55,059 nucleotides of DNA from a virus. Position numbers and translations under genes: made by a program. The stretch is from the IMG/VR virus record IMGVR_UViG_3300045988_019667; one strand, written 5' to 3'. Positions 12,039 to 37,198 of this stretch are shown here, piece by piece. Position 1 is the first letter of the stretch. Each line of letters begins with the position of its first letter. Below the pieces are notes generated by a model. That model had not been told where the DNA came from, did no database searches, and saw nothing but the letters and a program-made list of their open reading frames with translations.

Positions 12039-12040
12039 AA

Positions 12041-14057: not shown

Positions 14058-14069
14058 GAGGTGTTATGT

Positions 14070-16433: not shown

Positions 16434-16614
16434 TTTAAGGTCCTGCCCATTCTGCGGCGGGAATGAAATCATCATTCGCCCAGTGTACTACGCGGGGATC
16501 GTCAATCCACGCTTTTACGCACAGTGCCGAAGATGTTTCGCACAGACTGCGCCAAAGTGGACAACGAAGCTGGGCGCAGTCAAAGACTGGAATAGGAGAG
16601 CCGACAATGGTTAA
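16426..16614 (+). CDS. Lar-family restriction-alleviation-like protein
   Basis: 62 aa. LRSCPFCGG...YYA......QC.RC......LGAVKDWNRRA is the typical Lar-family pattern (CPFCGG ... C..C ... WNRR). Confidence 0.6.
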   Translation: MVDLRSCPFCGGNEIIIRPVYYAGIVNPRFYAQCRRCFAQTAPKWTTKLGAVKDWNRRADNG

Positions 16615-16972: not shown

Positions 16973-17216
16973 ACAGGCAGCGCGCTATTTCGCAAGTTTG
17001 CGGAAGAAACTGCCTCACGATGCCCGCGACTTTATGACGCGAGACAGCTTGCTTTTGAGCGTAGAACTGGCGTTGAGATCAGACTATTCACAGCTTGCGT
17101 TCTGGGACGCGATACAGATCGGAGACTGTGCGGGCTGTGTCGGGCAGGAAGTTCCGCAGAATTGTTCCTGCTGTCGCAGAAACCGGCATCTCAAAGACAA
17201 CTACAAGGAGGCATAA
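16950..17216 (+). CDS. Hypothetical Cys-rich protein (C-terminal CAGCVG...CSCCRRNRHLKDNYKEA)
   Basis: 88 aa. The C-terminal motif is paralogous to the upstream gene. Confidence 0.55.
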   Translation: MPLYINAEQAARYFASLRKKLPHDARDFMTRDSLLLSVELALRSDYSQLAFWDAIQIGDCAGCVGQEVPQNCSCCRRNRHLKDNYKEA

Positions 17217-17452
17217 TGTTTGGGCGAAGGAAATTGAAAGCCGAGATTGTGCGGCTGTCGTATCGGGTATCGGAGTTGGCGGAGCGCCTGTGCCCCTGTG
17301 AATCACACAGTTGGGTGGTGGTTGATTCCGATTTCACTGTCGGTTCCAGCGCAGGCGACATTGACACGATCTACCGGTATAAGTGCCGCAGGTGTGGAAA
17401 GACGCTGAAAACCTACAAGCTCCTGCCGACAGAGAGCTACACCGGCAAATAG
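17216..17452 (+). CDS. Small zinc-ribbon-like protein (CPCESH...CRRCG)
   Basis: 78 aa; TAATG overlap. Last gene of the accessory operon. Confidence 0.55.
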   Translation: MFGRRKLKAEIVRLSYRVSELAERLCPCESHSWVVVDSDFTVGSSAGDIDTIYRYKCRRCGKTLKTYKLLPTESYTGK

Positions 17453-17492
17453 AAAACTGCCGCAGAGGACAATTACCTCTGCGGTAGTTTTC
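17452..17492. terminator. 41-bp near-perfect palindrome: bidirectional terminator at the convergent junction (attP not excluded)
   Basis: GAAAACTGCCGCAGAGG-ACAATTA-CCTCTGCGGTAGTTTTC. It overlaps the stop codons of both convergent genes. Confidence 0.65.
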
Positions 17493-19080
17493 TTGTCAGG
17501 CCGAACACATTCCTAAACCAAAAGAGTTCGTACCTGTGTGTTTTGGTGGAGCGAGACGCACGGCATCCGAACTCCTCCCCGTCTTCAAAACGCTGCATAT
17601 CATGCAGTGTGATGGTGCTTTTATCTCCGCTGAAGTTGTACGTCAACGTTATGTGGTCGTCGTAAACGAATACCGCGTTCACGAAGGTCTGGATCAGGCG
17701 CTTTTGTGCCTCTTTGTCCGACCAGTCAGCATCACGCAGGCTGCGGAGATAAAATGCGATATGGGATTTTTGCAGGTGGAAACCGCGGGCGATTTCCCTG
17801 TCGGCAATGGACGCCTTCAGGTCGGCTTTCTGCTGCGTCAGCTCGTCCATGCGCTTCTTGGTTTCCTCAGTCAGTATTCCGGCCTCAATGGCCCGAATGA
17901 GGTTTGATATGGCGGTGTCAGTCTGTGCAAGCTGCCGCTGAAGGTTACGCAGCTCCTCTTGACTGTTGTCCTGTGCAAGGTAATACTCCCATGTGCGGTC
18001 AACGATGTAGTCCAGTAGCTCGTCGTCTTGCAGCAGCTCATGGGTGGCGTTGAGCACGGTGTCCTCAATGTCCGCCTGTCGCACGGCCTTTTTGTCGCAG
18101 GAGCGGAAGCGCTTCTTGTTGGAGCAGATGTAATAATTATGCTTGACACCGGTTTTACTGGTGCCGCTCTCTCCGAACATCAGAGCACCGCACTTGCCGC
18201 AGAACAGCTTGTCCGTGAGAATGTAGTCGGCACGCGACCATGTTTTCGCCGGTGCTCGCTTGTTGATCTTCAGCATTTCCTGCACTTTGTTAAACACGTC
18301 GTCCTCGATAATCCGGGGCACGCCGTCCTTGATCTCGCGGCCTTGGTATTCGTAAATGCCAATGTACTTCTTGTTCTTCAGAATCGAATGCAAGCTGTTC
18401 TTGGTGAAGGGTCCGCCGCGCAACGTCCGCAGGCCCATTTCATTCAGCTTGTCAACGATTTCCGTAACTGTCTTGCCGTCCGCGTACATGGTGAAGATCA
18501 TCTTCACTGTGGGCGCGGTATTTTCGTCTATGACGAACTTTTTGTCCGGCCCGGTCTTGTACCCCAGCGGGCGGTTTCCGCCCAACGACTGGCACTTCTC
18601 GGCGCTCTCAGCACGGCCACGGCGGATGTTCTGTGACAGCTGTAGGCTGTAATATTCCGCGAAGCCTTCCAGCACGCTTTCAAGGATTACGCCCTCCGGA
18701 CTGTCCGGGATGGTTTCCGCCACATACTCGACGCGCACGCCGTTCTTACGGCACTTCATCTTGTTTATGGCGATCTCCTCACGGTTACGCCCAAAGCGGT
18801 CAACCTTCCAGAGGATGATAACCGAAAACTGCCGCTTGGCCGTGTCCTTCAGCATCTGCTGGAACTCGGCACGGTTATCCGTCCGACCGCTCTTTGCCCT
18901 GTCAACGTATTCATGCACGATGGTGTAGCCGTGTGCGGCGGCGTAGTCTCTTGCGTTGGAGAGCTGCCCTTCGATGGACTGTTCACCTTGACTGTGGCTT
19001 GAATACCGGGCGTATACGACGGCCAGTTCGCTGACCTCCGGCTTTGCCATTGGCACCCGCCATTTAATATCTATCGACAT
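17473..19080 (-). CDS. int: Large serine recombinase (integrase)
   Basis: N-terminal resolvase domain with VVYARYSSHSQ (catalytic Ser context). Contains a recombinase domain, a Cys-containing zinc-ribbon region (CGKCGALM...YYICS) and a coiled-coil C-terminus. Alternative start at 19050 (MAKPEV...). Confidence 0.9.
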   Translation of the reverse strand: MSIDIKWRVPMAKPEVSELAVVYARYSSHSQGEQSIEGQLSNARDYAAAHGYTIVHEYVDRAKSGRTDNRAEFQQMLKDTAKRQFSVIILWKVDRFGRNREEIAINKMKCRKNGVRVEYVAETIPDSPEGVILESVLEGFAEYYSLQLSQNIRRGRAESAEKCQSLGGNRPLGYKTGPDKKFVIDENTAPTVKMIFTMYADGKTVTEIVDKLNEMGLRTLRGGPFTKNSLHSILKNKKYIGIYEYQGREIKDGVPRIIEDDVFNKVQEMLKINKRAPAKTWSRADYILTDKLFCGKCGALMFGESGTSKTGVKHNYYICSNKKRFRSCDKKAVRQADIEDTVLNATHELLQDDELLDYIVDRTWEYYLAQDNSQEELRNLQRQLAQTDTAISNLIRAIEAGILTEETKKRMDELTQQKADLKASIADREIARGFHLQKSHIAFYLRSLRDADWSDKEAQKRLIQTFVNAVFVYDDHITLTYNFSGDKSTITLHDMQRFEDGEEFGCRASRSTKTHRYELFWFRNVFGLTRKLPQR

Positions 19081-19085
19081 ATCTG

Positions 19086-19919
19086 TTACCCGTTACGCCC
19101 TTCTGCGCCCAGCAGGAGGGCTTTTTCGTTTGTTATGTACTTGTGAGCAGTTTCTTTGATGTCAGCCTCCATTTGGAGGGCGCGCTTTGAAGGCTTATAT
19201 GGTCTTGGCGTATATGTGTATGAGTTTTCCAACCATTCGGAGGATATATCAAGTTCTCTCTGAAACAGCAGCATATACGGTTTATAGCGCTCGTCTCTCA
19301 TGTACTTTTGAAGATACGCTTGCGATTCAGCCGGGCTTATGCGCCGATAGATTTTACCGACCAAAAGTGGGAAAGCCGGAGCGCAATTTTTGTCCGTACT
19401 TTGGGCTTTGAGCGCATATCTCAAAGCTGAATCCCACAGTCCTTCTTGTTCATAAAGTTCGGCCAATTTATAGCTAAAAAACGGGTCATTGGCGTCAAAC
19501 ATAACACGTTGTGCCTCGGCAACTATTTGAGATGATGCCGTGCCTAAATATCTCTCAAAGTATGCAATGGACTGCTGGCGTCCGATAGCTCCTTTGGTTT
19601 GGTATGCAAACCCAACGGCGAGTGCGTCCAAAGGGCTTTTTGATTCGCTGTACTTCTGTACGACAATTTCGTTCAATATGGCTCTCGCCTTGTATTTGAC
19701 TACGGAGGATTCGCTTGCAAGACCCAATGCGCGTTGTTTTGGGGTGTATTTGTTGCTGCCAGCTACACGTAGGACCTCTACGATTGTCTGGTTTTCACCA
19801 TCAGACAGGCGAGTAAAGTCGTATGCCCCATTACACACAATGCAGTCATCGGAATTCTGGTAGTATTCCGCAGGATGTATTGGCTCAAAACGGCTTGAAT
19901 CTTTTTTGAAAATCGACAT
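19086..19919 (-). CDS. Unknown 277-aa protein in the lysogeny operon (visibly lower GC than its flanks)
   Basis: Tightly packed between the repressor (24-nt gap) and the integrase (5-nt gap), same strand. Helical, TPR-like stretches (LAELYEQEGLWDSALRYALKA). No motif I can name. Confidence 0.6.
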   Translation of the reverse strand: MSIFKKDSSRFEPIHPAEYYQNSDDCIVCNGAYDFTRLSDGENQTIVEVLRVAGSNKYTPKQRALGLASESSVVKYKARAILNEIVVQKYSESKSPLDALAVGFAYQTKGAIGRQQSIAYFERYLGTASSQIVAEAQRVMFDANDPFFSYKLAELYEQEGLWDSALRYALKAQSTDKNCAPAFPLLVGKIYRRISPAESQAYLQKYMRDERYKPYMLLFQRELDISSEWLENSYTYTPRPYKPSKRALQMEADIKETAHKYITNEKALLLGAEGRNG

Positions 19920-19943
19920 AGAGGATTTTCCCCTTGCGCCGTA

Positions 19944-20339
19944 TCAGGCGTTCTTTGCTTGAATTTCAGTCCGGTACTTATCAGCGGAAAGCAGCCCGTC
20001 GAGGTATGCTTCCGCTTTTGCTTTATCGACGTCATCGAGCATTCTGAATTTGCTCACGAAGTCAGGGACGGCTCCAATATAGTCACGCGGCGCATCTTCC
20101 ACAACGGGAGCGCTGTTCACATAGTCAATCGGATTATCTGTACGCCCCAGCAAGTAGTCGGCGGACACGCCCAAAGCGTCTGCAATAGCCGCTACGGTTT
20201 CGCCTTTGGGGAATGTGTTTTTCGTATTCCACGAAGAAATTGTGGAGCGTGAAATGCCGAAAAGATCGGCGGCTTTTTGAGAGCACGGTTCAATTCCGTG
20301 TTCGGTGCAAGTGGCTGCATATCGCTCAAAGAAACTCAT
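19944..20339 (-). CDS. XRE-family HTH repressor (CI-like)
   Basis: HTH QKAADLFGISRSTISSWNTKNTFPKGETVAAIADALGVSADYLLG. Divergent from the cro-like early operon. Confidence 0.85.
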   Translation of the reverse strand: MSFFERYAATCTEHGIEPCSQKAADLFGISRSTISSWNTKNTFPKGETVAAIADALGVSADYLLGRTDNPIDYVNSAPVVEDAPRDYIGAVPDFVSKFRMLDDVDKAKAEAYLDGLLSADKYRTEIQAKNA

Positions 20340-20395
20340 TAGATCACCTTAGTCCGAAAAATTTAACCGCAGACCAAAATTTTCACCTAATCCTA

Positions 20396-20453
20396 TTGAC
20401 AAGCTCAATTTTTCGTACTATAATGTAGCTGTCAGTTGAAAATATTAGACTGA
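20396..20453 (+). promoter_or_regulatory. Consensus sigma-70 early promoter plus operator-like inverted repeat (module 2)
   Basis: TTGACA (20396..20401), 17-nt spacer, TATAAT (20419..20424). Then TCAGT-N12-ACTGA at 20432..20453, the same 8-nt offset from the -10 as module 1. Confidence 0.75.
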
Positions 20454-20593
20454 ACGGGCCTTAACAAGCCAAACGCAGTCCGAAATGAAATCGAGCCGCG
20501 CGGCTGTCAAGAATGGTAGCACATCTATGATAGCACGAAAGTCGAAAAGTTTCAACTGCTAATGCAAAAGTTTTTACTCAGGAGGTGAATTTT

Positions 20594-20806
20594 TTGACTC
20601 TCGACTGGACCGCTGAAGTGGTCGGGCGTATGCACATGGCGGCAATTACGGGCAAACAGCTTGCCGATGAAGCAGGGCTGACGAACTCGTACCTGTCCGC
20701 TGTTCTCCACAACAAGAAGGGCAACGCCACGACCCAGCAGCGCATCATTGATGCGCTTGAACGCCTTGAGCAGCGGCAGGCAAGCGAACCCACAGTTAAT
20801 CAGTAA
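20594..20806 (+). CDS. Cro-like HTH protein
   Basis: AGGAGG lies 8 nt before TTG 20594; the tracked start GTG 20585 overlaps the RBS. HTH ITGKQLADEAGLTNSYLSAVLHNKKG. Confidence 0.65.
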   Translation: MTLDWTAEVVGRMHMAAITGKQLADEAGLTNSYLSAVLHNKKGNATTQQRIIDALERLEQRQASEPTVNQ

Positions 20807-20823
20807 GAAACGAGGAAAGCATC

Positions 20824-21024
20824 ATGGCCAACGTCAAAATCGACTGCACGCAGATTCCGCGAGTACAAATGGATATTCTCTGCCGGACGCTGCTTGCAGG
20901 CATTGAGCGGTTTTACTCCGATCCGGAGAATTTACGCCGCTACGAAGCGTGGCTACAGAAATGCAGAGAGGAAGGCAAGTTCTATGACGACGACACGCAG
21001 ACGGCAGCACCAGCAGCTCAATAG
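20824..21024 (+). CDS. Hypothetical protein (66 aa)
   Basis: Tracked ORF with an RBS-like GAGGAAAG upstream. Confidence 0.55.
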   Translation: MANVKIDCTQIPRVQMDILCRTLLAGIERFYSDPENLRRYEAWLQKCREEGKFYDDDTQTAAPAAQ

Positions 21025-21685
21025 GCTGCGCCGTATCGCTTTTGGCCTCTTTGTGCTGGCAGTGTTGGAGGCGGTCGTAATCACGATCCTTGCCGTCAAC
21101 TGCGCGTCAGGCGCAGCGCCCGCACCGGAGGAAACCGCACCCGCTCCCACGGCTGAAACGTCCGTGCCGGAAACCGAAGCCCCTACCGCCTCCACACCGG
21201 ACGAGCCGGTCACAGAGCCGGAAACCGTACCGCAGGAGACAGAAGGGCAGAGATTCCTACACAGTGACGACATTCCGCTGAGCTACGAGCTTCAAGAGGT
21301 AATGCAGCAGGCGTGTGAGGACTACGGCGTTCCCTACGCACTGGCGCTGGCAATCGCGGAATGCGAAAGCAGCTTCAACCTCGATGCAGACAACGGCACC
21401 TGCTGGGGCCTGATGCAACTTCACCCGATTAACTATGATCGCCTGCGCGGACTTGGGATCGAACCCACCGACTATGAGGGCAACATTGTTGCCGGTGTCC
21501 TCCTGATCGGTGAGCTGCTGGACAAGTACGGCGACCAGCACAAAGCCCTCATGGCCTATAACTGTGGCGAGGGCGGCGCTGCGAAGCTCTGGCAGCAAGG
21601 CTACTACTCAAGTCAATACTCAAGGCACGTCTTGAACGTTTCTGAAAGCTGGCAACAAATCATCGACGATCTGAAGAACATTTAG
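20984..21685 (+). CDS. Membrane-anchored lytic transglycosylase (SLT domain)
   Basis: Starts MTTTRRRQHQQ. TM helix FGLFVLAVLEAVVITILAV, then a Pro/Glu/Thr-rich linker. SLT motif ALAIAECESSFNLDADNGTCWGLMQL...AYNCG. Confidence 0.75.
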   Translation: MTTTRRRQHQQLNRLRRIAFGLFVLAVLEAVVITILAVNCASGAAPAPEETAPAPTAETSVPETEAPTASTPDEPVTEPETVPQETEGQRFLHSDDIPLSYELQEVMQQACEDYGVPYALALAIAECESSFNLDADNGTCWGLMQLHPINYDRLRGLGIEPTDYEGNIVAGVLLIGELLDKYGDQHKALMAYNCGEGGAAKLWQQGYYSSQYSRHVLNVSESWQQIIDDLKNI

Positions 21686-21695
21686 GAGGCAAATC

Positions 21696-22175
21696 ATGTT
21701 TGAGATCAAAATGACCATCGAAATCCCCGGATTACCGGAAGCGCTGAACGCGCTGGCCGGTGCCACCGGCAAGCAGCCCGAATTCGTCTGCCATCAGCAC
21801 GGAGGGAACAACCACCACATCGACAACGCAGGCGTTGTCAACGTTGATTTCCCCGCCGCGCCTGCTCCTGCGGCTCCCGTCGTAAACCCTACGACACCTG
21901 TTCAGCCTGCGCCAACTACCGGCACTGTTGCACCCACCCCTGTTCAGCCGACTGCACCGACGACTGTTGCCCCGACTGCGCCGGTCGCCGCTCCGGCTGA
22001 GAGTTACACCGTGGAGGAACTGAGCCGCGCGGGTGCGGCGCTGATCGACGCAGGCAAGATGCCGCAGCTCCTTGCCCTGCTGGGCAAGTTCGGTGTGCGG
22101 GCCGTAACGCAGCTGCCGAAGGAGGCATACAGCGCCTTTGGTGCTGAGCTGAAGGCCCTCGGAGCGCAGCTTTAA
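21696..22175 (+). CDS. Hypothetical protein with a Pro/Ala/Thr-rich linker
   Basis: TAGGAGG RBS; 159 aa. Confidence 0.6.
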   Translation: MFEIKMTIEIPGLPEALNALAGATGKQPEFVCHQHGGNNHHIDNAGVVNVDFPAAPAPAAPVVNPTTPVQPAPTTGTVAPTPVQPTAPTTVAPTAPVAAPAESYTVEELSRAGAALIDAGKMPQLLALLGKFGVRAVTQLPKEAYSAFGAELKALGAQL

Positions 22176-22189
22176 CGGGAGGTGGGACA

Positions 22190-23386
22190 ATGCCTACCCC
22201 CAGACAACACGCCCTTCTGAGCGCATCCAGCGCCCACCGCTGGCTGGCTTGTACGGCGGCACCGCATTTCGAGGAGAGCTTCCCGGATGGGACAAGCTCC
22301 TATGCGGAGGAAGGCACTCTGGCACACGCCATCTGTGAGCTGTACGCCCGCAAGAAATTCACTGTCCTGTCCACCCGCAAATTCAACTCTGAGCTGAAGA
22401 AGCTGCAAGCCTGCCCGCTGTACTCTGCCGAGATGCTGCGGACCGCCGAAGCGTATGTGGACTATCTCACGGAGAAGGCCATGCAGTACGCCGCGCCGCC
22501 CCATGTGGCAATGGAGGTCAAGGTCGATCTCACGGCCTATGTCCCGGACGGTTTCGGCACCTGCGACTGTATCATGATTGGCGGCGACACGCTGCACATC
22601 ACCGACTACAAGCACGGCAAGGGCGTTCCCGTATCGGCTGAAAACAACCCGCAAATGCGGCTGTATGCGCTGGGTGCTCTGAAGCTCTACGGGCCTATCT
22701 ACGGCGACCAAATCAAGTGGGTATCAATGGGTATCTGTCAGCCCCGCCTGTCACAGGAGGCCAGCGAGGACGACCTTAGTGTGGATGATCTGCTTGCATG
22801 GGGCGAGAGTATCAAACCCCTTGCAAAGGAAGCCTACGACGGCCCCGGAACCTTCTGCCCCGGTGAGCACTGCCGATTCTGCAAGGGCAAGGCGCAATGC
22901 GCCGCAAGAGCCGCGTTCTTTACCGGCTTTGAGGATTTTAAGAATCTCACCCCTGCGAACGGCAGCCGGGAGATCGGAAAAAATCCGTGCCTGTCGGACG
23001 CCGAAGTTGGCGACCTGCTGATTCAAGCCGAAGGTCTGGTGCAGTGGTACAAGGACCTTCAGGATTACGCCACCGGCGCTATGCTTGACGGCGGCGAAAT
23101 CCCCGGCTGGAAGCTGGTGGAGGGCCGCAGCAACCGTGCCTTTACGGATGTTGACGCCGCCGTTCAGAAGCTAATCGACGCCGGATATGACGAGGCGCTG
23201 ATCTACGACCGCAAGCCGAAGACCCTCTCAGAGCTGGAAAAGATGCTCGGCAAAAAGACCTTCGCGGAGCTGCTTTCCGAGTGTGTCACAAAGCCGAAGG
23301 GCAAACCTACACTTGCGCTGGCAAGCGACCGCCGCGAAGCCTATTGCGTTGGTGCTGCTGAGTTTGCGGGTGCGTCTGATGGCTGA
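22190..23386 (+). CDS. DUF2800-type PD-(D/E)XK nuclease (Cas4-like, C-terminal Cys cluster)
   Basis: N-terminus LLSASSAHRWLACTAAPH. Nuclease core HITDYKHGKG. Cys cluster CPGEHCRFCKGKAQC. Confidence 0.75.
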   Translation: MPTPRQHALLSASSAHRWLACTAAPHFEESFPDGTSSYAEEGTLAHAICELYARKKFTVLSTRKFNSELKKLQACPLYSAEMLRTAEAYVDYLTEKAMQYAAPPHVAMEVKVDLTAYVPDGFGTCDCIMIGGDTLHITDYKHGKGVPVSAENNPQMRLYALGALKLYGPIYGDQIKWVSMGICQPRLSQEASEDDLSVDDLLAWGESIKPLAKEAYDGPGTFCPGEHCRFCKGKAQCAARAAFFTGFEDFKNLTPANGSREIGKNPCLSDAEVGDLLIQAEGLVQWYKDLQDYATGAMLDGGEIPGWKLVEGRSNRAFTDVDAAVQKLIDAGYDEALIYDRKPKTLSELEKMLGKKTFAELLSECVTKPKGKPTLALASDRREAYCVGAAEFAGASDG

Positions 23387-23711
23387 AACGGTATATCTCA
23401 ATGATGGCAGCATGGAGGTCATTTTCGAGGACAAGGACGTGTTCCTTGAACGGCTGCTGCGCGAAAAGCTCGGAGATGACGTCGCCCGCTGCTTCCGGGA
23501 ATGCGTCGCAGAGCTGAAGGAGGAAATCCAAGAGCAGCAGGAGCTGGTCAAGGATTATGAGGGCAACGCGGACGGCTATCTGGATATGTGCCGCGACGCC
23601 TGCGAATCCTTCACCGCCATTATGGAACTGCTGGAAGCGCCCCGTTTGAACCGGAATGCGCTCAAATCCGTAACCCGAAACGCCTTCAACGCGATCTACA
23701 AAAACCTTTAG
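23379..23711 (+). CDS. Hypothetical protein (110 aa)
   Basis: The ATG overlaps the upstream 3' end. Acidic and helical. Confidence 0.55.
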   Translation: MAETVYLNDGSMEVIFEDKDVFLERLLREKLGDDVARCFRECVAELKEEIQEQQELVKDYEGNADGYLDMCRDACESFTAIMELLEAPRLNRNALKSVTRNAFNAIYKNL

Positions 23712-23775
23712 ACCCCACCTGCGGATGCAGGACTGAACATATTGAACTGAATGAAATTTATGGAGGAATTAAACC

Positions 23776-24489
23776 ATGTATCAGAATGATCCGAAAAGAG
23801 TTCTCACCCCCGAATGCCGCCTGTCCTACTGCAACCTCGTGACCGCCCGTGCGCCGCAGAACGGCGTGGGCGACCCGAAGTTCAGCGTCACGCTGCTGAT
23901 CCCTAAGTCCAACCCGACTATCAAGCAGGAGCTTGACGCGGCCATGAACGCCGCCGCCGAGGTCGGCGTCAACGCCAAGTGGAATGGTGTCCGTCCCACC
24001 CGCATCGAATCCGTTGTCCATGACGGTGACGGTGTGCGCCCCTCCGGTGAGCCTTTTGGTGAGGAATGCCGTGGCTGCTGGGTCGTGACCGCATCCAGCA
24101 AGAACAAGCCCTATGTCTGCGGCGCGGACAATGTGAACTGTGAACTGGCTCCCACGGACATTTACAGCGGTATGTATGCCCGTGTGTCCATCAACTTCTA
24201 TGCCTACAACTCTGCGGGCAAGCGCGGCGTCGGCTGCGGCCTGCGCGCCGTGATGAAGACCCGCGACGGCGAACCGCTCAGCAACTCCGTTGTTACCGCC
24301 GCTGAGTTCGCCGGTGTCGGCGGCGTTCAGCCGCAGGCCCCCGCGCAGGGCTACGCTACCGGCCAGTATGGCGCGGCCATGCCCGCAACGCCTGTCCCCG
24401 GCTACGGCGGTTATCCCGCTGGCGGCGTTCAGCCGCAGGCCGGTTACACTCCCGGCCAGATCAACCCCATCACCGGTCAGCCCATGTAA
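23776..24489 (+). CDS. DUF2815-type ssDNA-binding-like protein
   Basis: N-terminus VLTPECRLSYCNLVTARAP...KFSVTLLIPK and a Gly/Pro/Gln-rich tail. It partners with DUF2800, PolA and VirE in this type of replication module. Confidence 0.7.
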   Translation: MYQNDPKRVLTPECRLSYCNLVTARAPQNGVGDPKFSVTLLIPKSNPTIKQELDAAMNAAAEVGVNAKWNGVRPTRIESVVHDGDGVRPSGEPFGEECRGCWVVTASSKNKPYVCGADNVNCELAPTDIYSGMYARVSINFYAYNSAGKRGVGCGLRAVMKTRDGEPLSNSVVTAAEFAGVGGVQPQAPAQGYATGQYGAAMPATPVPGYGGYPAGGVQPQAGYTPGQINPITGQPM

Positions 24490-24555
24490 ACCACAGCGCT
24501 GGGCAGGCGGCTACACAGTGACCGCCTGCCCGGCAAGGACACAAAGGAGGCAAAT

Positions 24556-24927
24556 ATGAAAACCCGTTTTGACTATTCCGGCGTTTGGATCACCGGCGTC
24601 GGCGAGGCTGTCCCCGTGGGCAACATGGAGACGCCGCATTTGCTGAACACGGTGCGTATGCTCGTTCAGAAGCCCGCTCGGACGCTTTCCATCCTCGTGG
24701 CTGACATTGAGCACGCGACCTTCTCTGATACGGTCTGGACGCCCTTCAACGCCGATGACCGCAAGCAGTCCCTCAAGAACGTAACCAGCTTGAGCGACGC
24801 GGAGCTGGTCGAGTATGTGCAGTCAACCCCGCTGTTCAAGTCCATGATCGAGGAGCTTCAGGAGCGCGGTGTCAACACCAAGAACGTTCTCAGCCTTTAT
24901 TCCAGCTCTGAAGCCTTCCAGCGATAA
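24556..24927 (+). CDS. Hypothetical protein (123 aa)
   Basis: AAAGGAGG RBS; tracked ORF. Confidence 0.6.
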   Translation: MKTRFDYSGVWITGVGEAVPVGNMETPHLLNTVRMLVQKPARTLSILVADIEHATFSDTVWTPFNADDRKQSLKNVTSLSDAELVEYVQSTPLFKSMIEELQERGVNTKNVLSLYSSSEAFQR

Positions 24928-24938
24928 GGAGGTGCGAC

Positions 24939-26930
24939 GTGATCCACCTCAGTATCGACCTCGAAACGTACTCGGACGTGAATCTGAAAAAGGCTGGTCT
25001 TTACCGCTATGTGCAAAGTCCCGCCTTTGAGATTCTGCTTTTTGCGTACAGCCTCGACGGTGCGCCCACTCAGGTCGTTGATATGGCACAGGGCGAAAAA
25101 ATCCCGCTGGAAGTTGTCCACGCACTGACAGACCCGCAGTGCCTGAAGCACGCCTACAACGCGGCCTTTGAATGGTACTGCCTCAGTAAGTACATGGGCG
25201 TGCAGCTCCCGCCTTCACAGTGGCGTGACACGATGCTGCACGGCCTGTATGCCGGTTACACCGCAGGTCTGGACGCGACGGGCCGGGCGCTGGGCATTCC
25301 GGAGGACAAGCAGAAGCTGACCACCGGCAAGGCCCTGATTCGCTATTTTTGTGTGCCCTGTAAGCCAACAAAGGCAAACGGCGGCAGAACCCGAAATTAC
25401 CCGCATCACGACCCCGAAAAATGGGCGCTGTTTAAGACCTACAACGGCCAAGACGTTGTGGCGGAAATGGAGATCGAACGCCGCCTGTCTGTGTTCCCCG
25501 TGCCAGATTTCGTTCAGAAGCAGTGGGAAACCGACCTGCTTATCAACGCGCGCGGCGTGGCGGTCGATATGGACTTCTGCGAAGGTGCGTTGGAGCTGGG
25601 CGAAACCATCCGCGCGAAGCTCACGGACGAGGCCGTCCAGCTTTCCGGACTGCAAAACCCCAACAGCGTCAAGCAGCTTGCCCGCTGGCTGTCCGCCGAA
25701 ACCGGCGACGATATTACCACCCTCCGCAAGGAGACGATCAAAGAGCTGCTGGGCCGCGACAACGCTGACCACGTTCAGCGGATGCTGGAAATCCGGCAGG
25801 AGCTGGGCAAGACCAGCACCAAGAAATACGACGCCATCGAGGCCGCTGTGTGCGACGACGGGCGCGTCCGTGGGCTGCTTCAGTTCTACGGCGCAAACCG
25901 GACGGGGCGCTGGGCCGGACGTCTGGTGCAGGTCCAGAATCTGCCCCGCACCTACACGGAGCCGCTGGAATTTGCCCGTGAGCTGGTCAAGGGCCGCAAG
26001 CTCGACGCGCTGCGGACAGTCTATGGCTCTCCGAATGACACGTTGTCACAGCTTATCCGCACCGCGTTTGTGGCTGCCCCCGGCAACGTCCTGATTGACG
26101 CCGATTTCAGCGCCATTGAAGCCCGCGTCATATCGTGGCTGGCCGACGAGGAGTGGCGGCTTGAAGTCTTCAGGACGCACGGCAAAATCTATGAGGCATC
26201 CGCCTCTCAGATGTTCGGCGTCCCACTGGAACGGATCAAGAAGGGCAACCCCGAATATTCCCTCCGGCAGCGCGGCAAGGTCGCAGAATTGGCCCTCGGC
26301 TATCAGGGCGGCGTTCCCGCCATGCGGCAGATGGACACCGGCAAGCTGCTTGCCGACCTGCCGGACGAAGAAATCAAAGACATCGTGGATAAGTGGCGCA
26401 ACACAAACCCCAAAATCCGCAACCTATGGTACAGCTTCAATGATGCAGCAATCCGTGTCATTCAGAATGGCGGCTCTCTCCGTGTTCGCTGCTGCACCTT
26501 CGCGCGGGAATGTGACTGCATTCGTGGTACGACCTGCATGACCATCTCGCTTCCGTCCGGTCGCAAGCTCTATTATGTGGAGCCTGCTGTCGGTGAAAAC
26601 CGCTGGGGCGGTCCGTCCATCACCTATATGGGCGTGAACGACAAAAACAAGTGGGGCCGCATCGAAACCTACGGTGGGAAATTGGTCGAGAACGTTGTTC
26701 AGGCTATCGCCCGCGACTGTCTGGCGCAGGCCATCGAACACCTTGAAGCCGCTGGGCTGCCTGTGGTTTTCCACATCCACGACGAGGTGGTCATCGACAC
26801 CGCCGCATTCGACACCAACGATGCCATGCTTGACAAAGTGGTCAAGATCATGTCAACCCCGATCCCGTGGGCGGAGGGCCTGCCCCTCGGCGCTGACGGC
26901 TGGGTCGGAGCATTTTTCAAAAAAGATTAA
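24939..26930 (+). CDS. Family-A DNA polymerase with 3'-5' exonuclease domain
   Basis: Exo I SIDLETYS. Pol motif A IDADFSAIEARV, motif B RQRGKVAELALGYQGG, motif C FHIHDEVV. Confidence 0.9.
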   Translation: MIHLSIDLETYSDVNLKKAGLYRYVQSPAFEILLFAYSLDGAPTQVVDMAQGEKIPLEVVHALTDPQCLKHAYNAAFEWYCLSKYMGVQLPPSQWRDTMLHGLYAGYTAGLDATGRALGIPEDKQKLTTGKALIRYFCVPCKPTKANGGRTRNYPHHDPEKWALFKTYNGQDVVAEMEIERRLSVFPVPDFVQKQWETDLLINARGVAVDMDFCEGALELGETIRAKLTDEAVQLSGLQNPNSVKQLARWLSAETGDDITTLRKETIKELLGRDNADHVQRMLEIRQELGKTSTKKYDAIEAAVCDDGRVRGLLQFYGANRTGRWAGRLVQVQNLPRTYTEPLEFARELVKGRKLDALRTVYGSPNDTLSQLIRTAFVAAPGNVLIDADFSAIEARVISWLADEEWRLEVFRTHGKIYEASASQMFGVPLERIKKGNPEYSLRQRGKVAELALGYQGGVPAMRQMDTGKLLADLPDEEIKDIVDKWRNTNPKIRNLWYSFNDAAIRVIQNGGSLRVRCCTFARECDCIRGTTCMTISLPSGRKLYYVEPAVGENRWGGPSITYMGVNDKNKWGRIETYGGKLVENVVQAIARDCLAQAIEHLEAAGLPVVFHIHDEVVIDTAAFDTNDAMLDKVVKIMSTPIPWAEGLPLGADGWVGAFFKKD

Positions 26931-26944: not shown

Positions 26945-27568
26945 ATGTTTATTAAGACTTCTACTACCAACGAAACCACATGGGCCGCGCTGAAGGCGGC
27001 GGTCGATAACGGCACCATCGCGCAGGGCGATTTGGTCATCTTCAATCTGAAGAACGGCGAGGAAGTGGCCGTGAGAGCTACACAGGACAAGAAGGGCAAG
27101 TGGTTCTTCGTCCTCGAAGACTGCCTCGCTGACGAGCACTGCATGAACAAGCGCCCCACCAACAAGGGCGCGTGGGCCGCCTGCGATATGCGGCAGTATC
27201 TCAACAATACCGTGTTCGCCCTTCTGCCGGACGAGCTTCAGGCGCTTATTGCGCCGACGACAATCGTCCAGATCGTGGACGGTGAGCGCGTGGAAACTGA
27301 AGACAAGCTGTTCTTGCTCTCCAAGACGCAGGTGTTCGGCAAGGGCCGCTGGTCGGATCGTGAGCCGGAGGACACGCAACTCCTGTGCTTCCTCCGCGAG
27401 AAGGACCGCGTGAAGGAGTGCAGCGACAATGGAACATGGTGGTGGTGGCTGCGGTCGCCTGAGGCGTCCGGCTCGTCGTCTTTCGCCAGTGTGTCCGGCA
27501 TCGGTGGCAGCAGCAACTGCTCCGCGTCCTCCTCCTACGGGGTGGCGTTCGGCTTCTGTTTAATCTGA
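26945..27568 (+). CDS. Stand-alone lectin-like (WWLRSP-type) protein, DGR target 2 (207 aa)
   Basis: TAAGGAGG RBS 14 nt after the polymerase stop. Paralogous to the C-terminal domain of the tail fibre (GAWAACDMRQYLNNTVFALLP / DKLFLLSKTQV versus GGWASCGMRTWLNETIFAALP / DRLFLLSRAEV). Carries VR2. No obvious signal peptide or TM helix. Confidence 0.9.
   Translation: MFIKTSTTNETTWAALKAAVDNGTIAQGDLVIFNLKNGEEVAVRATQDKKGKWFFVLEDCLADEHCMNKRPTNKGAWAACDMRQYLNNTVFALLPDELQALIAPTTIVQIVDGERVETEDKLFLLSKTQVFGKGRWSDREPEDTQLLCFLREKDRVKECSDNGTWWWWLRSPEASGSSSFASVSGIGGSSNCSASSSYGVAFGFCLI
27443..27554 (+). other. DGR variable region VR2 (remote target)
   Basis: 112 nt collinear with TR 7548..7659. There are 15 mismatches, all at TR adenines (VR2 AGT GTG TCC GGC ATC GGT GGC AGC AGC AAC TGC TCC GCG TCC TCC). 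Confidence 0.93.
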
Positions 27569-27584
27569 TTTCCCTTTGAAATCC

Positions 27585-27603
27585 GGCCCCCGGTCGTGGG
27601 GCC
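27585..27603 (+). promoter_or_regulatory. GC-rich hairpin 30 nt downstream of VR2
   Basis: ggcccc-cggtcgt-ggggcc, the same stem core as the VR1 hairpin. Confidence 0.5.
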
Positions 27604-27645: not shown

Positions 27646-27882
27646 ATGAAATGCGAAAAGCTGATTAAAACCGCCGCTGTGGTGGCTCTGATCCTTTTTA
27701 TCGCCGGTGCAGTAATCGGCACTCTGGCCGTCCCAGTGGTCCTGTCCATGTTCTATTCGTGGTACTGGCTGTTCCTGTATGCCGGTTATCTGCTTGTCAT
27801 CCTCTATGTGGCGCTTTACTGCATCCGCTACAGCTATGAAGAACACATCAATAACGGAGGGAAATCCTATGCAAAACGCTAA
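27646..27882 (+). CDS. Small multi-pass membrane protein (78 aa)
   Basis: GGAGG RBS; three hydrophobic helices. Confidence 0.6.
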   Translation: MKCEKLIKTAAVVALILFIAGAVIGTLAVPVVLSMFYSWYWLFLYAGYLLVILYVALYCIRYSYEEHINNGGKSYAKR

Positions 27883-28180
27883 CATCGGTCTGGTTGACAT
27901 TACGTTGACCTGCCATTTCGAGGTCAAGGACGCCGAAGTGTTCGGCGGCGCTGGGAGCGTCGGCTACACAAGCGTTGCGCTGAAGCACGCGAAAGCCGCC
28001 GACCAGCTTGTGGGCATCATCAACAATTCGGTTCAGTGTGAGGGGTTCCTTTACGCCCAGCGCAAGAGCACTGCTGACCTGCTCGGCGTTCCCGTCGAGT
28101 GCGTCCGGGCCATTACATACGACCAGTACGAGGCTGCGACCGGGGACGATGAAACGGAGGACGACGATGAAGATTATTAA
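27869..28180 (+). CDS. Hypothetical acidic protein (103 aa)
   Basis: GGAGGG RBS before ATG 27869; acidic tail DDETEDDDEDY. Confidence 0.55.
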   Translation: MQNANIGLVDITLTCHFEVKDAEVFGGAGSVGYTSVALKHAKAADQLVGIINNSVQCEGFLYAQRKSTADLLGVPVECVRAITYDQYEAATGDDETEDDDEDY

Positions 28181-28814
28181 GCCCGGCTTCGAGTTCATCA
28201 CGCCCATTGACGGCAGCGTAATCCTGAAGCGCCTTGAGGAGTGCGGGCGCGTCTGCTACAAATCCGAGGGCAAGATCACAGACGACAGCGCCCCTAAGTT
28301 CGTTGCCGGTATCATCAAGCGCGGCCATGAGGCCGTCTTAGAGCATTGCAGCTTTACCGTGAAATTCATTTGTGACCGTGGCGTCAGCCACGAGATCGTC
28401 AGGCACCGGCTGGCATCCTATTGTCAGGAGAGCACCCGCTACTGTAATTACGGCAAGGATCAGTTCGGCAGCGAGATCACAGTCATTGAGCCGTGTTACC
28501 TGAACAAGGACACCTTCGCCTACGACGAGTGGAAAGAGGCTTGCCGCCGCGCTGAAACAGCCTACTTCAACCTTCTGAATTGGGGTCTGTCTCCGCAGGA
28601 GGCCCGCGCAGTGCTCCCGAACAGCCTCAAAACGGAGGTCGTTATGACGGCCAATATCCGCGAGTGGCGTCACTTCCTGCGGCTCCGCACCTCAACCGGC
28701 GCACATCCGCAGATACGGGAAGTAGCTACACCACTGCTGCGTGAGTTGCAGCAGATCGTTCCTGTTTGCTTTGATGACATTCTGCCGAAGGAGGCTAACC
28801 ATGAAACGAGCTGA
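28167..28814 (+). CDS. thyX: Flavin-dependent thymidylate synthase
   Basis: ThyX signature RHRLASYCQESTRY. 215 aa from ATG 28167. Confidence 0.85.
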   Translation: MKIIKPGFEFITPIDGSVILKRLEECGRVCYKSEGKITDDSAPKFVAGIIKRGHEAVLEHCSFTVKFICDRGVSHEIVRHRLASYCQESTRYCNYGKDQFGSEITVIEPCYLNKDTFAYDEWKEACRRAETAYFNLLNWGLSPQEARAVLPNSLKTEVVMTANIREWRHFLRLRTSTGAHPQIREVATPLLRELQQIVPVCFDDILPKEANHETS

Positions 28815-35838: not shown

Positions 35839-37198
35839 CTATCAGCAGTATTGCATTGACCGGATCATTCGTGATCCGGCATTGGGGCTTTTCTTGGACA
35901 TGGGCCTCGGCAAAACGGCTATCACGCTGACCGCGATCAAGCGGCTGAAGTATGAATATTGGGCAGTGCGGAAGGTGCTTGTCATTGCTCCGAAGAAGGT
36001 AGCTGAAAGCACGTGGGACAAAGAAGCTGCAAAGTGGTCCCACCTCTCCTGCCTCCGGCTGGTACACGTCCTCGGCTCTGTGGGGCAGCGTACCGCAGCA
36101 CTGGCCCAAACGGCGGACGTTTATCTCATCAACCGCGAGAATGTGCAGTGGCTGGTGGGCTATTACGGGCACAGCTGGCCGTTCGATATGGTGGTCATCG
36201 ACGAAAGCAGCAGCTTCAAAAATCATCAAGCAAAGCGCTTCAAGGCGCTGAAGCTGGTGCGCTCTCGGATCAACCGCATTGTGGAGCTGACCGGCACGCC
36301 GAATCCTCGCAGCCTTATGGACCTGTGGGCGCAGGTGTATCTGCTGGACTGCGGGCAGCGGCTGGGCCGTACCATCACGTCATACCGCGACGCATACTTT
36401 GTGCCGGACAAGCGCAGCCGCACGACGATCTTCTCCTATGCGCCGAAGCTGGGTGCAGCGGACGAAATCTACAGGCGCATTTCTGACATCTGTATCAGCA
36501 TGAAATCGGAAGACTACCTCGACCTGCCGGAACTGATCTATGAGGACATCCCCGTCAAGCTGGACGCCGCAGCGCAGAAGGCTTACGACCGCTTGGAGCG
36601 GGACACGCTGCTTCAGGTGGACGAAACAGTCATCACGGCTGGCTCTGCTGCTACTCTGCGCGGCAAGCTCCTACAGCTCTGTAACGGCGCTGTGTACGAC
36701 GAGGACGGGAATGTCATCACCGTGCATGACTGCAAGATCGAGGCGCTGCTTGAGACTGTGGAGCAGCTGAACGGGCAGCACGCGATTATCTGCTACAATT
36801 TCAAGCATGACCGTGACCGGCTGTTGCAGGCGCTGGAAGCTACACGCCTACGGGTGAGAGTGTACGAGGGCAAAGCGGAAGAAGACGACTGGAACGCCGG
36901 TAACATCGACCTGCTGTTGATGCAGCCCGCGTCCTGTGGCTACGGCCTCAACCTGCAAGAGGGCGGCCATCACATCATTTGGTTCGGCCTGAACGACAGT
37001 TTGGAGCTGTACCAGCAGACCAATAAGCGCCTGCACCGGCAGGGGCAGCCGTGCCCCGTCATAGTCCACCATCTGGTGGTGCTGGGCGGCACGGATGAAG
37101 ACGTTATTAAATCTCTGGGCGGCAAAGCCAATGCACAGGATAGCCTGTTGGAAGCCCTGAAGGTTAGAATTCAGAAGGCTAAGGAGGCCGCAGCATGA
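35816..37198 (+). CDS. SNF2-family helicase
   Basis: Motif I LDMGLGKT, motif II VVIDESSSFKN, plus C-terminal helicase motifs (QPASCGYGLNLQ). Confidence 0.85.
   Translation: MKEFCPHNYQQYCIDRIIRDPALGLFLDMGLGKTAITLTAIKRLKYEYWAVRKVLVIAPKKVAESTWDKEAAKWSHLSCLRLVHVLGSVGQRTAALAQTADVYLINRENVQWLVGYYGHSWPFDMVVIDESSSFKNHQAKRFKALKLVRSRINRIVELTGTPNPRSLMDLWAQVYLLDCGQRLGRTITSYRDAYFVPDKRSRTTIFSYAPKLGAADEIYRRISDICISMKSEDYLDLPELIYEDIPVKLDAAAQKAYDRLERDTLLQVDETVITAGSAATLRGKLLQLCNGAVYDEDGNVITVHDCKIEALLETVEQLNGQHAIICYNFKHDRDRLLQALEATRLRVRVYEGKAEEDDWNAGNIDLLLMQPASCGYGLNLQEGGHHIIWFGLNDSLELYQQTNKRLHRQGQPCPVIVHHLVVLGGTDEDVIKSLGGKANAQDSLLEALKVRIQKAKEAAA

What the first reader, a model, noticed from the sequence alone, without database searches (positions are those of the whole stretch)
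26945..27603. Second, remote DGR target: a stand-alone variable lectin-like protein inside the replication module
About 19.9 kb from the TR, 27443..27554 is collinear with TR 7548..7659. I find 15 mismatches, all at TR adenines (AGT GTG TCC GGC ATC GGT GGC AGC AGC AAC TGC TCC GCG TCC TCC).
- The host ORF is only 207 aa and has no evident signal peptide or TM helix.
- It starts 14 nt after the family-A DNA polymerase stop, so it is probably co-transcribed with early or middle replication genes rather than tail genes.
- Outside the VR it has diverged strongly from the fibre C-terminal domain; only short motifs are shared. Yet every non-adenine VR position is identical to the TR. That argues for ongoing retrohoming into both targets.

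DGR targets in phages are typically tail fibres. A diversified, apparently soluble binder expressed with the replisome suggests a different role. It could be an intracellular variable binder (for example against variable host defence or receptor-maturation proteins), or a separately expressed virion or adhesin accessory.
Basis: partly seen in the sequence, partly recalled or inferred. Interest (0 to 1): 0.82.

Follow-up and report, generated by a model that had tools for sequence, protein, structure and literature searches.

The report
Second, remote DGR target in phage
A gut phage's mutagenic retroelement rewrites not only its tail-fibre tip but also a small one-domain binding protein encoded 20 kb away next to the DNA polymerase; this arrangement is real and active in nature, but it was already described in Roseburia phage Shimadzu and others, and what the small protein does is still unknown.

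Summary
VR2 (27443..27554) matches TR (7548..7659) without gaps. All 15 mismatches fall on TR adenines and none on the 89 other bases.

The 207-aa ORF (26945..27568) is intact and belongs to Pfam DUF6273. It starts 14 nt after the PolA stop codon and has no hydrophobic segment.

VR2 is actively diversified in nature:
- Its 90%-identity protein cluster holds 2,527 distinct sequences, which vary only at the ten TR AAY codons.
- 14 of 15 VR2 copies in IMG/VR differ from one another, while the TR stays constant.

The arrangement is not new. The protein is a homologue of orf43 of Roseburia phage Shimadzu. That gene was published as a second, experimentally diversified DGR target of unknown function, and it also lies among replication genes. 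I found the same layout, unannotated, in Dulem virus 34. Similar two-target DUF6273 systems are published for Toutatisvirus/Lelie and for nd4/nd12.

What I add:
- The stand-alone gene sits in the early/replication module in every lineage I sampled.
- It often lies near a membrane-anchored peptidoglycan hydrolase.
- One lineage fuses it to DUF4406.

Verdict: a new member of a known kind, of moderate interest because the function is still open.

The parts
26945..27568 (+). Target gene 2: a 207-aa stand-alone DUF6273 (C-type-lectin-like) protein. Identical to GenBank DAL13113.1.
   Evidence: ORF list. Pfam PF19789, E = 1.7e-24, residues 51-205. Exact look-up. AlphaFold2 model with pLDDT 94.8 matches viral DUF6273 models and the DUF6273 N-terminal domain of PDB 9qa6.
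27443..27554 (+). VR2, the variable repeat. It encodes residues 167-203. The ten variable residues are 182, 184-186, 188, 190-193 and 196.
   Evidence: Population variation is confined to these residues. 14 of 15 VR2 copies in IMG/VR are distinct.
27555..27558 (+). 3' boundary marker TCTG. Both VRs carry it, while the TR has CCTC. It follows the G+C-rich stretch GGGGTGGCGTTCGGCT and resembles the IMH versus IMH* distinction.
   Evidence: Alignment. Its function is inferred by analogy with BPP-1.
27585..27603 (+). GC hairpin GGCCCC-N7-GGGGCC, starting 31 nt after the end of TR homology. No T-run follows it, so it is not an intrinsic terminator.
   Evidence: DNA fold. The same GGCCCCC...GGGGCC core lies 32 nt after VR1, and there is none after the TR. 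No + strand terminator is predicted between 26908 and 30285.
7540..7659 (+). TR, the template repeat. 7540..7659 is used for VR1 and 7548..7659 for VR2. The 112-nt core has 23 adenines and ten AAY codons.
   Evidence: The TR is invariant at A sites in 9 IMG/VR copies.
7074..7487 (+). Avd accessory protein of the DGR
   Evidence: PHROG 3206 'Avd protein of DGR', E = 2e-10.
7878..9035 (+). DGR reverse transcriptase. The listed ORF 7536..9035 runs in frame through the TR. The likely start is the ATG at 7878.
   Evidence: Pfam RVT_1 and PHROG 1423. Sequence.
1276..6891 (+). Target gene 1: a 1871-aa tail fibre with a C-terminal DUF6273 domain. VR1 lies at 6761..6880.
6905..6936 (+). 13-bp GC hairpin downstream of VR1
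   Evidence: DNA fold, z = -4.4.
24939..26930 (+). Family-A DNA polymerase, immediately upstream (context)
   Evidence: Pfam DNA_pol_A and PHROG 17. The PolA-lectin order is conserved in L006, L008 and the IMG/VR loci that retain the upstream flank.
27646..27882 (+). 78-aa protein with two TM helices, immediately downstream. Conserved together with the lectin gene in this lineage (context).
   Evidence: Hydropathy. 100% identical in most IMG/VR relatives. Homologous position in L006 and L008.
28008..28814 (+). ThyX thymidylate synthase (context)
   Evidence: Pfam Thy1, E = 9e-50.
20396..20424 (+). Perfect sigma-70 consensus promoter beside the repressor gene. It is the probable early promoter of the operon that contains the VR2 gene.
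   Evidence: Repressor at 19944..20339(-).

Best explanation
This is the second, non-adjacent target of the phage's single diversity-generating retroelement (DGR).

How diversification works:
- The TR (7540..7659) is transcribed.
- Avd and the RT copy it into cDNA, misincorporating opposite adenines.
- The cDNA replaces the homologous 112 nt at the 3' end of gene 26945..27568, as it also does at the fibre tip.
- Both targets carry the same 3' boundary (GGCT|TCTG) and a GGCCCC/GGGGCC hairpin 31-32 nt downstream.
- Ten AAY codons are rewritten. AAC can never become a stop codon. This alters ten residues on a beta-hairpin of a one-domain DUF6273 (C-type-lectin-like) protein.

The protein belongs to a large family of stand-alone DUF6273 proteins of about 205-220 aa in phages of gut Clostridia. 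It is a homologue of Roseburia phage Shimadzu orf43.

The gene is translated from the early/replication operon, just behind PolA.

Shown here: the repeat anatomy, the family membership, the operon position and natural hypervariation.

Inferred: the retrohoming steps, by analogy with BPP-1, and the role of the protein. I take the protein to be a soluble variable ligand binder. Where it acts is unresolved. My ranking of the possibilities is:
- on the virion or the cell surface, about 0.45;
- inside the infected cell, about 0.3;
- at the envelope, together with the early membrane-anchored peptidoglycan hydrolase, about 0.15.
For: Repeat anatomy:
- The mismatches are A-only, 15 of 15, P = 3e-13.
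- Avd, RT and TR lie in the same genome.
- Both VRs have hairpins and the TR has none. The same holds in Shimadzu and in Dulem virus 34.

Natural hypervariation:
- The 90%-identity cluster has 2,527 member sequences.
- In 18 aligned members, mean column entropy is 2.58 bits at the ten AAY residues against 0.10 outside the VR.
- IMG/VR holds 15 VR2 copies, 14 of them distinct, with 5-15 changes at A sites. All 9 TR copies are unchanged at A sites.
- The two non-A changes seen in three VR2 copies equal the changes in one TR variant, L023.

Family and fold:
- The protein hits Pfam DUF6273.
- The AF2 model (pLDDT 94.8) matches 28 viral DUF6273 models.
- It also matches PDB 9qa6, the DUF6273 N-terminal domain of an IgA protease, at E = 1e-4 and TM 0.63.

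Homologues with the same architecture:
- Shimadzu: TR 19580-19715, VR1 in the fibre, VR2 33480-33596 in orf43 (paper).
- Dulem virus 34: TR 21399-21538, VR1 and VR2 36192-36313.

Synteny:
- The order PolA, lectin, small TM protein, ThyX is kept at 61-68% protein identity.
Against: - No experiment on this phage exists. Retrohoming into VR2 is inferred from population patterns, not from reads of a single culture.
- The VR2 hairpin is weak on its own: a 6-bp stem with z = -1.2.
- The functional part of the statement has no direct evidence at all.
Confidence: 0.9

Rival explanations
1. The 207-aa protein is a virion-associated or otherwise extracellular accessory receptor-binding protein or adhesin. 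It would resemble Mtd and simply be encoded outside the structural module. It would dock onto the tail or fibre, or act after lysis, and bind host-surface or gut ligands.
For: - Every DUF6273 domain whose context is known is extracellular. Examples are fibre tips and receptor-binding proteins among the viral structure matches, tentaclins and 'target2' proteins (PMC10743442), and the N-terminal domain of a secreted, sortase-anchored IgA protease.
- Giant proteins carry up to 12 tandem copies of the unit. I did not check whether these are secreted.
- The protein shares one TR with the fibre tip, so both binding sites are randomised in the same way.
Against: - The gene lies in the early/replication module in all lineages I sampled: the window, L006, L008, L037, Shimadzu, Dulem virus 34, L009, L035 and L036.
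- No N-terminal anchoring or trimerisation domain is evident.
- In Shimadzu, VR2 alleles showed weaker selection than VR1 alleles during infection in mice.
Confidence: 0.4
2. One reading: an intracellular, early-expressed variable binder that recognises variable host proteins, for example defence systems.
For: - The gene sits directly behind PolA with no room for a promoter or terminator between them.
- Its position in the early module recurs in at least six lineages.
- None of 64 short 50%-identity representatives has a hydrophobic N-terminus.
- One lineage fuses the protein to DUF4406, a nucleoside-deoxyribosyltransferase-like domain that I take to be cytoplasmic (P0365-P0371).
- About ten representatives carry an N-terminal CxxC knuckle.
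Against: - Virion proteins also lack signal peptides.
- The DUF4406 fusion may only reflect that the two genes are neighbours.
- No DUF6273 domain is known to work inside a cell.
- No defence-related partner was seen nearby.
Confidence: 0.28
3. A cell-envelope role from the infected cell. The variable lectin would work with the membrane-anchored peptidoglycan hydrolase encoded in the same early region, for example as a separately encoded cell-wall-targeting subunit or in superinfection control.
For: - A hydrolase with the same architecture (Arg-rich N-terminus, one TM helix, catalytic domain) but with different catalytic folds lies nearby in several lineages.
- It is directly upstream in L035 (3D domain) and L036 (Hydrolase_2).
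- It is 2-3 genes upstream in Shimadzu, Dulem virus 34 and L009.
- It is 5 kb upstream in the window, as the SLT-domain gene 20894..21685.
Against: - The lectin has no export signal.
- In the window lineage the two genes are not adjacent.
- I found no recognisable hydrolase at the corresponding place in L006 and L008.
- The association was not tested statistically.
Confidence: 0.15
4. VR2 is a fossil: a former target, or a duplicated fibre tip, that is no longer diversified.
For: None beyond the single-sequence view. One genome alone cannot show activity.
Against: - 14 of 15 VR2 copies in near-identical relatives are distinct, and they differ only at A sites.
- The 90%-identity cluster has 2,527 members.
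- There are no non-A differences from the TR, although the surrounding framework is only about 30% identical to the fibre tip.
Confidence: 0.02

Closest known systems
Roseburia phage Shimadzu orf43 / VR2 (Cornuault et al., bioRxiv 10.1101/575076; ISME J 2020)
   Same: - One DGR sits next to the tail-fibre gene (VR1), with a second VR about 14 kb away.
- The second VR is at the 3' end of a 209-aa stand-alone DUF6273 protein of unknown function, among early/replication genes.
- The protein is homologous: 30% identity over 70% of the query.
- I re-derived the TR/VR2 pair.
- Diversification was shown experimentally.
   Different: - The phage backbone differs. Shimadzu is described as a myovirus; the window carries PolA, ThyX and a serine integrase, and I did not determine its morphology.
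- The neighbours differ: DNA methyltransferases and Erf there, PolA and ThyX here.
- The TR sequence is different.
Two-target DUF6273 DGRs of gut phages: nd4/nd12 (tentaclin plus small 'target2', PMC10743442), Faecalibacterium phages Lelie/CP11 (PMC11792537), Toutatisvirus (bioRxiv 10.1101/2024.10.15.618418)
   Same: - One TR serves a large and a small DUF6273 protein.
- The VR lies at the C-terminus of the domain.
- In Toutatisvirus the second target is 17.5 kb from the TR and is a core gene.
- The VR forms a beta-hairpin on a C-lec-like domain. This fits strands 179-183 and 189-193 of my model.
   Different: - In those phages the large target is an Ig-domain 'tentaclin' or Hoc-like protein, not an 1871-aa fibre.
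- The passages I read do not say which genomic module holds the small target.
Bordetella phage BPP-1 Mtd / DGR prototype
   Same: - Adenine-specific TR-to-VR transfer.
- AAY codons in the TR.
- The VR lies at the 3' end of the gene.
- A G+C-rich 3' boundary and a downstream hairpin.
- Avd plus RT.
   Different: - BPP-1 has a single adjacent target.
- Mtd is a 381-aa trimeric tail-fibre tip with N-terminal domains (from my own knowledge).
- No significant Foldseek match to Mtd was obtained here.
Dulem virus 34 (PP511788.1) XCD07409.1
   Same: - Two-target layout found here: TR 21399-21538, VR1 in the Ig-like fibre protein, VR2 14.8 kb away.
- VR2 lies in a 221-aa stand-alone homologue (35% identity), just after an adenine methyltransferase.
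   Different: - The target, the Avd-like gene and the RT are all annotated as 'hypothetical protein' in the record. I found no publication describing this DGR.
- It has a contractile-tail backbone.
N-terminal DUF6273 domain of Thomasclavelia ramosa IgA peptidase (PDB 9qa6; PMC12402451)
   Same: Best solved-structure match to the model: E = 1e-4, TM 0.63. It is a DUF6273 domain of unknown role.
   Different: It is part of a secreted, cell-wall-anchored 137-kDa protease, and no DGR is reported for it in that paper.

Membership tests
DGR variable-repeat target | TR/VR pair whose differences fall (almost) only on TR adenines | tested here: met
   15 of 15 mismatches on A and 0 of 89 on non-A. P = 3e-13.
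DGR variable-repeat target | DGR-type reverse transcriptase and an accessory protein (Avd) in the same replicon, with the TR next to the RT | tested here: met
   Avd 7074..7487, TR 7540..7659, RT 7878..9035.
DGR variable-repeat target | VR at the 3' end of an intact ORF; TR adenines concentrated in AAY codons, so that no stop codons can arise | tested here: met
   The VR encodes residues 167-203 of 207. There are ten AAY codons.
DGR variable-repeat target | cis elements for homing: an IMH-like G+C-rich 3' boundary that differs from the TR, and a downstream hairpin | tested here: inconclusive
   Both VRs share GGCT|TCTG where the TR has GGCT|CCTC. A GGCCCC/GGGGCC hairpin lies 31-32 nt downstream of both VRs and is absent after the TR. 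Their function cannot be tested in silico.
DGR variable-repeat target | Evidence of ongoing diversification | tested here: met
   At population level: a cluster of 2,527 sequences varying only at the AAY residues, and 14 distinct VR2 sequences among 15 IMG/VR copies. Heterogeneity within one sample was not testable.
Pfam DUF6273 (PF19789) | Profile match above the gathering threshold | tested here: met
   87 bits against a cut-off of 23.5, residues 51-205.
Pfam DUF6273 (PF19789) | Fold shared with other DUF6273 domains | tested here: met
   The model (pLDDT 94.8) matches BFVD DUF6273 proteins at E down to 9e-14 and TM 0.75-0.83. It also matches PDB 9qa6.
C-type-lectin fold of DGR variable proteins (Mtd, TvpA) | Structural similarity to solved C-lec DGR targets | tested here: inconclusive
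Phage tail fibre / receptor-binding protein | Encoded in the tail module and carrying an N-terminal virion-attachment domain | tested here: not met
   The gene lies between PolA and ThyX, 13 kb upstream of TerL. It is a single globular domain.
Phage tail fibre / receptor-binding protein | Physically present in virions | not testable with these tools
   This needs virion proteomics. I found none in the papers I read for any homologue.

The most novel reading that the evidence does not exclude
Stand-alone DUF6273 proteins encoded in the early/replication modules of Clostridia phages would form a widespread class of DGR-diversified binders that are not virion parts. They would act inside the infected cell or at its envelope. 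Possible roles are hypervariable antibody-like counter-defence or host-takeover factors, or variable targeting subunits of the early membrane-anchored peptidoglycan hydrolases.
Probability: 0.25. Interest if true: 0.8.

Novelty: new member of a known kind. Interest (0 to 1): 0.35.

Why it matters
As a sequence feature it is a clean, naturally active example of one DGR serving two distant targets. It confirms what is already known from Shimadzu and from Toutatis-like phages.

The open question is biological. Phages of several unrelated backbones keep a hypervariable, one-domain binder in the early/replication operon rather than with the tail genes. If that binder acts inside the cell or at the envelope, DGRs in phages would do more than switch receptor tropism.

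Shimadzu, with its cultivable host Roseburia intestinalis L1-82, offers a tractable system to test this.

Tried and rejected
- Megablast of window 1..25000 against GenBank phages found nothing.
- The closest DNA relative, MT837204, has an unrelated 224-aa gene with no Pfam match in the PolA-ThyX slot. The lectin gene is therefore not universal in that slot.
- The first AlphaFold2 run used one subfamily only. It gave pLDDT 65 and no usable Foldseek hits. It was replaced by a run on a three-subfamily alignment.
- A profile search of PDB sequences found nothing relevant.
- I looked for a TR inside the loci of more distant homologues (flanks of 7-10 kb): L006, L008, L009 and L010. None was present, as expected if the DGR lies about 15-35 kb away. 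Whether those copies are DGR targets is therefore unknown.
- N-terminal extensions of ten longer family members had no Pfam domain.
- The DNA-methylase/orf43 fusion P0138 has a single member sequence. I treat it as a possible assembly or gene-calling artefact.
- I considered chance similarity, a simple duplication of the fibre tip and a fossil VR. All three are rejected by the A-only mismatch pattern and the population variation.

Full report
OBSERVATION

An ungapped scan with the TR core (7548..7659) as query, counting adenine and non-adenine mismatches separately, finds exactly two other places in the 55-kb window. These are 6769..6880 (VR1, in the 1871-aa ORF 1276..6891) and 27443..27554 (VR2). 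VR2 has 15 mismatches. All are on the 23 TR adenines and none on the 89 other positions. The probability of that placement is 3e-13.

The TR-VR1 homology begins 8 nt further 5' (7540) than the TR-VR2 homology. Different 5' boundaries for different targets of one DGR are known (Wu et al. 2018, PMC5758913).

The host ORF 26945..27568 is intact at 207 aa. It begins 14 nt after the stop codon of a family-A DNA polymerase, and that gap holds only an AAGGAGG ribosome-binding site. The protein has no hydrophobic stretch.

In the gene's frame the TR carries ten AAY codons. They correspond to residues 182, 184-186, 188, 190-193 and 196. Nine of them are changed in this copy.

The small protein and the fibre tip align over the whole domain: 41% identity over 164 columns, E = 3e-35. 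By my count that is about 30% outside the VR-encoded part.

WHAT SURROUNDS IT

The window is a complete-looking temperate phage genome, and the protein is identical to GenBank DAL13113.1 from a 55,059-nt contig. Its map, is:
- fibre with VR1 (1276..6891), Avd (7074..7487), TR, and RT (7878..9035);
- endolysin (10377..11378);
- serine integrase (17473..19080, minus strand) and repressor (19944..20339, minus strand);
- a perfect sigma-70 consensus promoter (20396..20424);
- a membrane-anchored SLT-domain protein (20894..21685);
- exonuclease, gp2.5-like SSB and PolA;
- the VR2 gene, then a 78-aa protein with two TM helices, then ThyX;
- primase-helicase and an SNF2 helicase;
- TerL (40604..41839), portal, major capsid protein and tape measure.

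No + strand terminator is predicted between PolA and 30285. Co-transcription with PolA follows directly from the sequence. Expression from the early promoter is an inference.

CIS ELEMENTS

Both VRs end with GGCT followed by TCTG, where the TR has CCTC. Both are followed by a hairpin with the same GGCCCC/GGGGCC core, starting 32 nt after the end of homology for VR1 (13-bp stem, z = -4.4) and 31 nt after it for VR2 (6-bp stem, z = -1.2). Nothing comparable follows the TR.

Shimadzu and Dulem virus 34 likewise have a GC hairpin after each of their two VRs. In Dulem virus 34 both hairpins have GAAA loops. This matches what is known of DGR target recognition in BPP-1 (my own knowledge), but I cannot test function.

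IS VR2 ACTIVE?

Yes, at the population level.
- The 90%-identity cluster that contains the window protein has 2,527 distinct member sequences.
- In an alignment of 18 members and near relatives the framework is almost invariant, with mean column entropy 0.10 bits. The ten AAY-encoded residues are hypervariable, at 2.58 bits and 5-9 different residues each.
- An exact 42-mer from the constant part of the repeat found 24 stretches in IMG/VR.
- Sorted by their 3' flank, these hold 9 TR copies with no A-site change, 3 VR1 copies and 15 VR2 copies. Fourteen of the VR2 copies are distinct, with 5-15 A-site changes.
- Three VR2 copies carry the same two non-A substitutions that occur in one TR variant (L023). 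That is what TR-to-VR2 copying predicts, but these sequences lie on different contigs.
- One IMG/VR contig (UViG_3300045988_007015) carries VR1, TR and VR2 together.

None of them is met.

RELATIVES AND SYNTENY

Homologues at 61-68% protein identity sit in the same place in prophages with a serine recombinase module: PolA, a 14-nt gap, a 209/210-aa DUF6273 protein, a small TM protein, then ThyX. A homologue at 66% identity has the same downstream small ORF.

The nearest DNA relative in GenBank, MT837204, instead has an unrelated 224-aa gene between PolA and ThyX. The lectin gene plus the TM gene therefore behave as an accessory cassette in a variable slot.

More distant homologues of 30-35% identity exist in isolated or complete phages.
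- Shimadzu orf43 lies between DNA methyltransferases and Erf. My scan recovers TR 19580-19715, VR1 in the fibre and VR2 33480-33596 in orf43.
- In Dulem virus 34 the homologue follows an adenine methyltransferase. I find an unannotated DGR there, with TR 21399-21538, VR1 in the Ig-like fibre protein and VR2 36192-36313.

Other family members are also in early regions:
- next to SSB, DnaB, RusA and Dam (L035);
- next to a Rep protein (L036);
- next to an SNF2 helicase and a primase (L009).

In my sample of nine contexts, none was in a structural module.

FAMILY AND FOLD

The protein hits Pfam DUF6273. A profile of three subfamilies finds 12,376 representatives at 50% identity. Many are stand-alone proteins of about 200-230 aa, and some are giant proteins with up to 12 tandem copies of the whole 210-position unit. 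The N-terminal 50 residues are therefore part of the domain, not an extra module.

With that alignment AlphaFold2 gives pLDDT 94.8 and pTM 0.90. The VR maps to two strands, 179-183 and 189-193. This agrees with the hypermutated beta-hairpin described for other DUF6273 targets (PMC10743442).

Foldseek finds 28 viral DUF6273 models, including fibre and receptor-binding proteins. It also finds one solved structure, the DUF6273 N-terminal domain of the Thomasclavelia ramosa IgA peptidase, whose role is unknown. It gives no significant match to Mtd, TvpA or classical C-type lectins. Here the C-lec label rests on the literature.

WHAT IS ALREADY KNOWN

- Non-adjacent targets within the same prophage are common (PMC5758913).
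- Shimadzu VR2 in orf43 was reported as such. It was shown to be diversified: 2% of virion reads in vitro and 47% of reads in mouse viromes. It appeared to be under weaker allele selection than VR1.
- Two-target DUF6273 DGRs are described for nd4/nd12 and Lelie/CP11.
- In Toutatisvirus the second target is 17.5 kb from the TR and is a core gene.

The finding is thus a new member of a known kind. All these papers state that the function of the small target is unknown.

FUNCTION

The diversification mechanism can be stated with confidence. The role of the protein cannot.

For an extracellular or virion role:
- DUF6273 domains of known context are extracellular.
- The small protein shares its template with the fibre tip.

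For an intracellular role:
- The position in the early operon is recurrent.
- None of 64 short representatives has an export signal.
- One lineage fuses the protein to DUF4406, a nucleoside-deoxyribosyltransferase-like domain.
- About ten representatives have an N-terminal CxxC knuckle.

For an envelope role:
- A membrane-anchored peptidoglycan hydrolase of constant architecture but varying catalytic fold lies close upstream in six contexts.
- It is directly adjacent in two of them.

None of this is decisive. I rank the three roles at about 0.45, 0.3 and 0.15.

HOST

The repeat also occurs in human-gut Clostridia metagenome-assembled genomes. One relative is integrated next to a galactokinase-like gene in a 107-kb contig.

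Noticed in passing
window 20894..21685; L035 4635..5252; L036 6386..6994; L009 8421..9185; L002 5181..6098; L003 5492..6208: Early-region peptidoglycan hydrolases share one architecture: an Arg-rich N-terminus, a single TM helix, then a catalytic domain. The catalytic folds differ (SLT, 3D, Hydrolase_2, 'cell wall hydrolase'). They lie close upstream of the stand-alone DUF6273 gene in six contexts and are directly adjacent in two. This may indicate a functional link.
   Followed up: partly
P0365, P0368-P0371 (L009 10001..10993): One lineage encodes a single 327-333-aa protein in which an N-terminal DUF4406 (nucleoside-deoxyribosyltransferase-like) domain is fused to the stand-alone-type DUF6273 unit. 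The gene lies in the early region of a temperate phage. In Dulem virus 34 a DUF4406 gene lies about 1.8 kb downstream of the DUF6273 gene as a separate gene.
   Followed up: partly
P0451, P0452, P0455, P0456, P0464, P0469, P0479, P0485, P0507, P0509: About ten 50%-identity representatives of the stand-alone family carry a short N-terminal extension with a single CxxC motif (for example KCPDCGK). It has no Pfam match.
   Followed up: no
window 27646..27882: A 78-aa protein with two TM helices lies directly downstream of the VR2 gene. It is 100% identical in almost all IMG/VR relatives, whereas ThyX varies (67-97% identity). It keeps its position at 61-68% lectin identity (L006, L008), but is absent from the other lineages.
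   Followed up: partly
L001 (MT837204.1) 2528..3202: In the closest GenBank DNA relative the slot between PolA and ThyX holds an unrelated 224-aa gene with no Pfam match, instead of the lectin gene plus the TM gene. This is a variable accessory slot inside the replication module.
   Followed up: partly
L023 514..; L016, L017, L021: One TR variant (L023) carries two non-A substitutions. The same two substitutions appear in the VR2 of three other contigs. This is consistent with VR2 being overwritten from its own TR, but the link is across contigs.
   Followed up: partly
PP511788.1 (L004/L002): 20657..22877 and 36192..36313: Dulem virus 34 has a complete two-target DGR that is not annotated as such in the record. 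The Avd-like gene, the RT (with a YMDD motif) and the second target are all labelled 'hypothetical protein'.
   Followed up: yes
window 7536..9035: The mechanical ORF runs in frame from the TR into the RT, so its N-terminus gives a spurious partial DUF6273 hit at residues 3-38. The real RT start is probably the ATG at 7878.
   Followed up: yes
window 27443..27554 (residues 173, 189, 198): TR adenines outside AAY codons rarely or never vary in natural VR2 copies. These are GAG (E173), AGC (S189) and TAC (Y198). S189 and E173 are invariant in 18 sequences. This suggests purifying selection on scaffold positions.
   Followed up: partly
P0375 (3973 aa), P0376 (3404 aa) and others: Giant proteins contain up to 12 tandem copies of the entire 210-position unit, including the N-terminal 50 residues that the Pfam model omits. 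Their origin and localisation were not examined.
   Followed up: no
BFVD H7BVQ3: A 97-aa viral protein fragment in UniProt/BFVD is 86% identical to the window protein. This phage lineage therefore already has a fragmentary entry in UniProt. I did not trace its source.
   Followed up: no
window 20396..20555: Divergent promoter-like sites lie between the repressor gene (19944..20339, minus strand) and the first rightward genes. One is a perfect TTGACA-17-TATAAT on the + strand. This is probably the immunity region.
   Followed up: no
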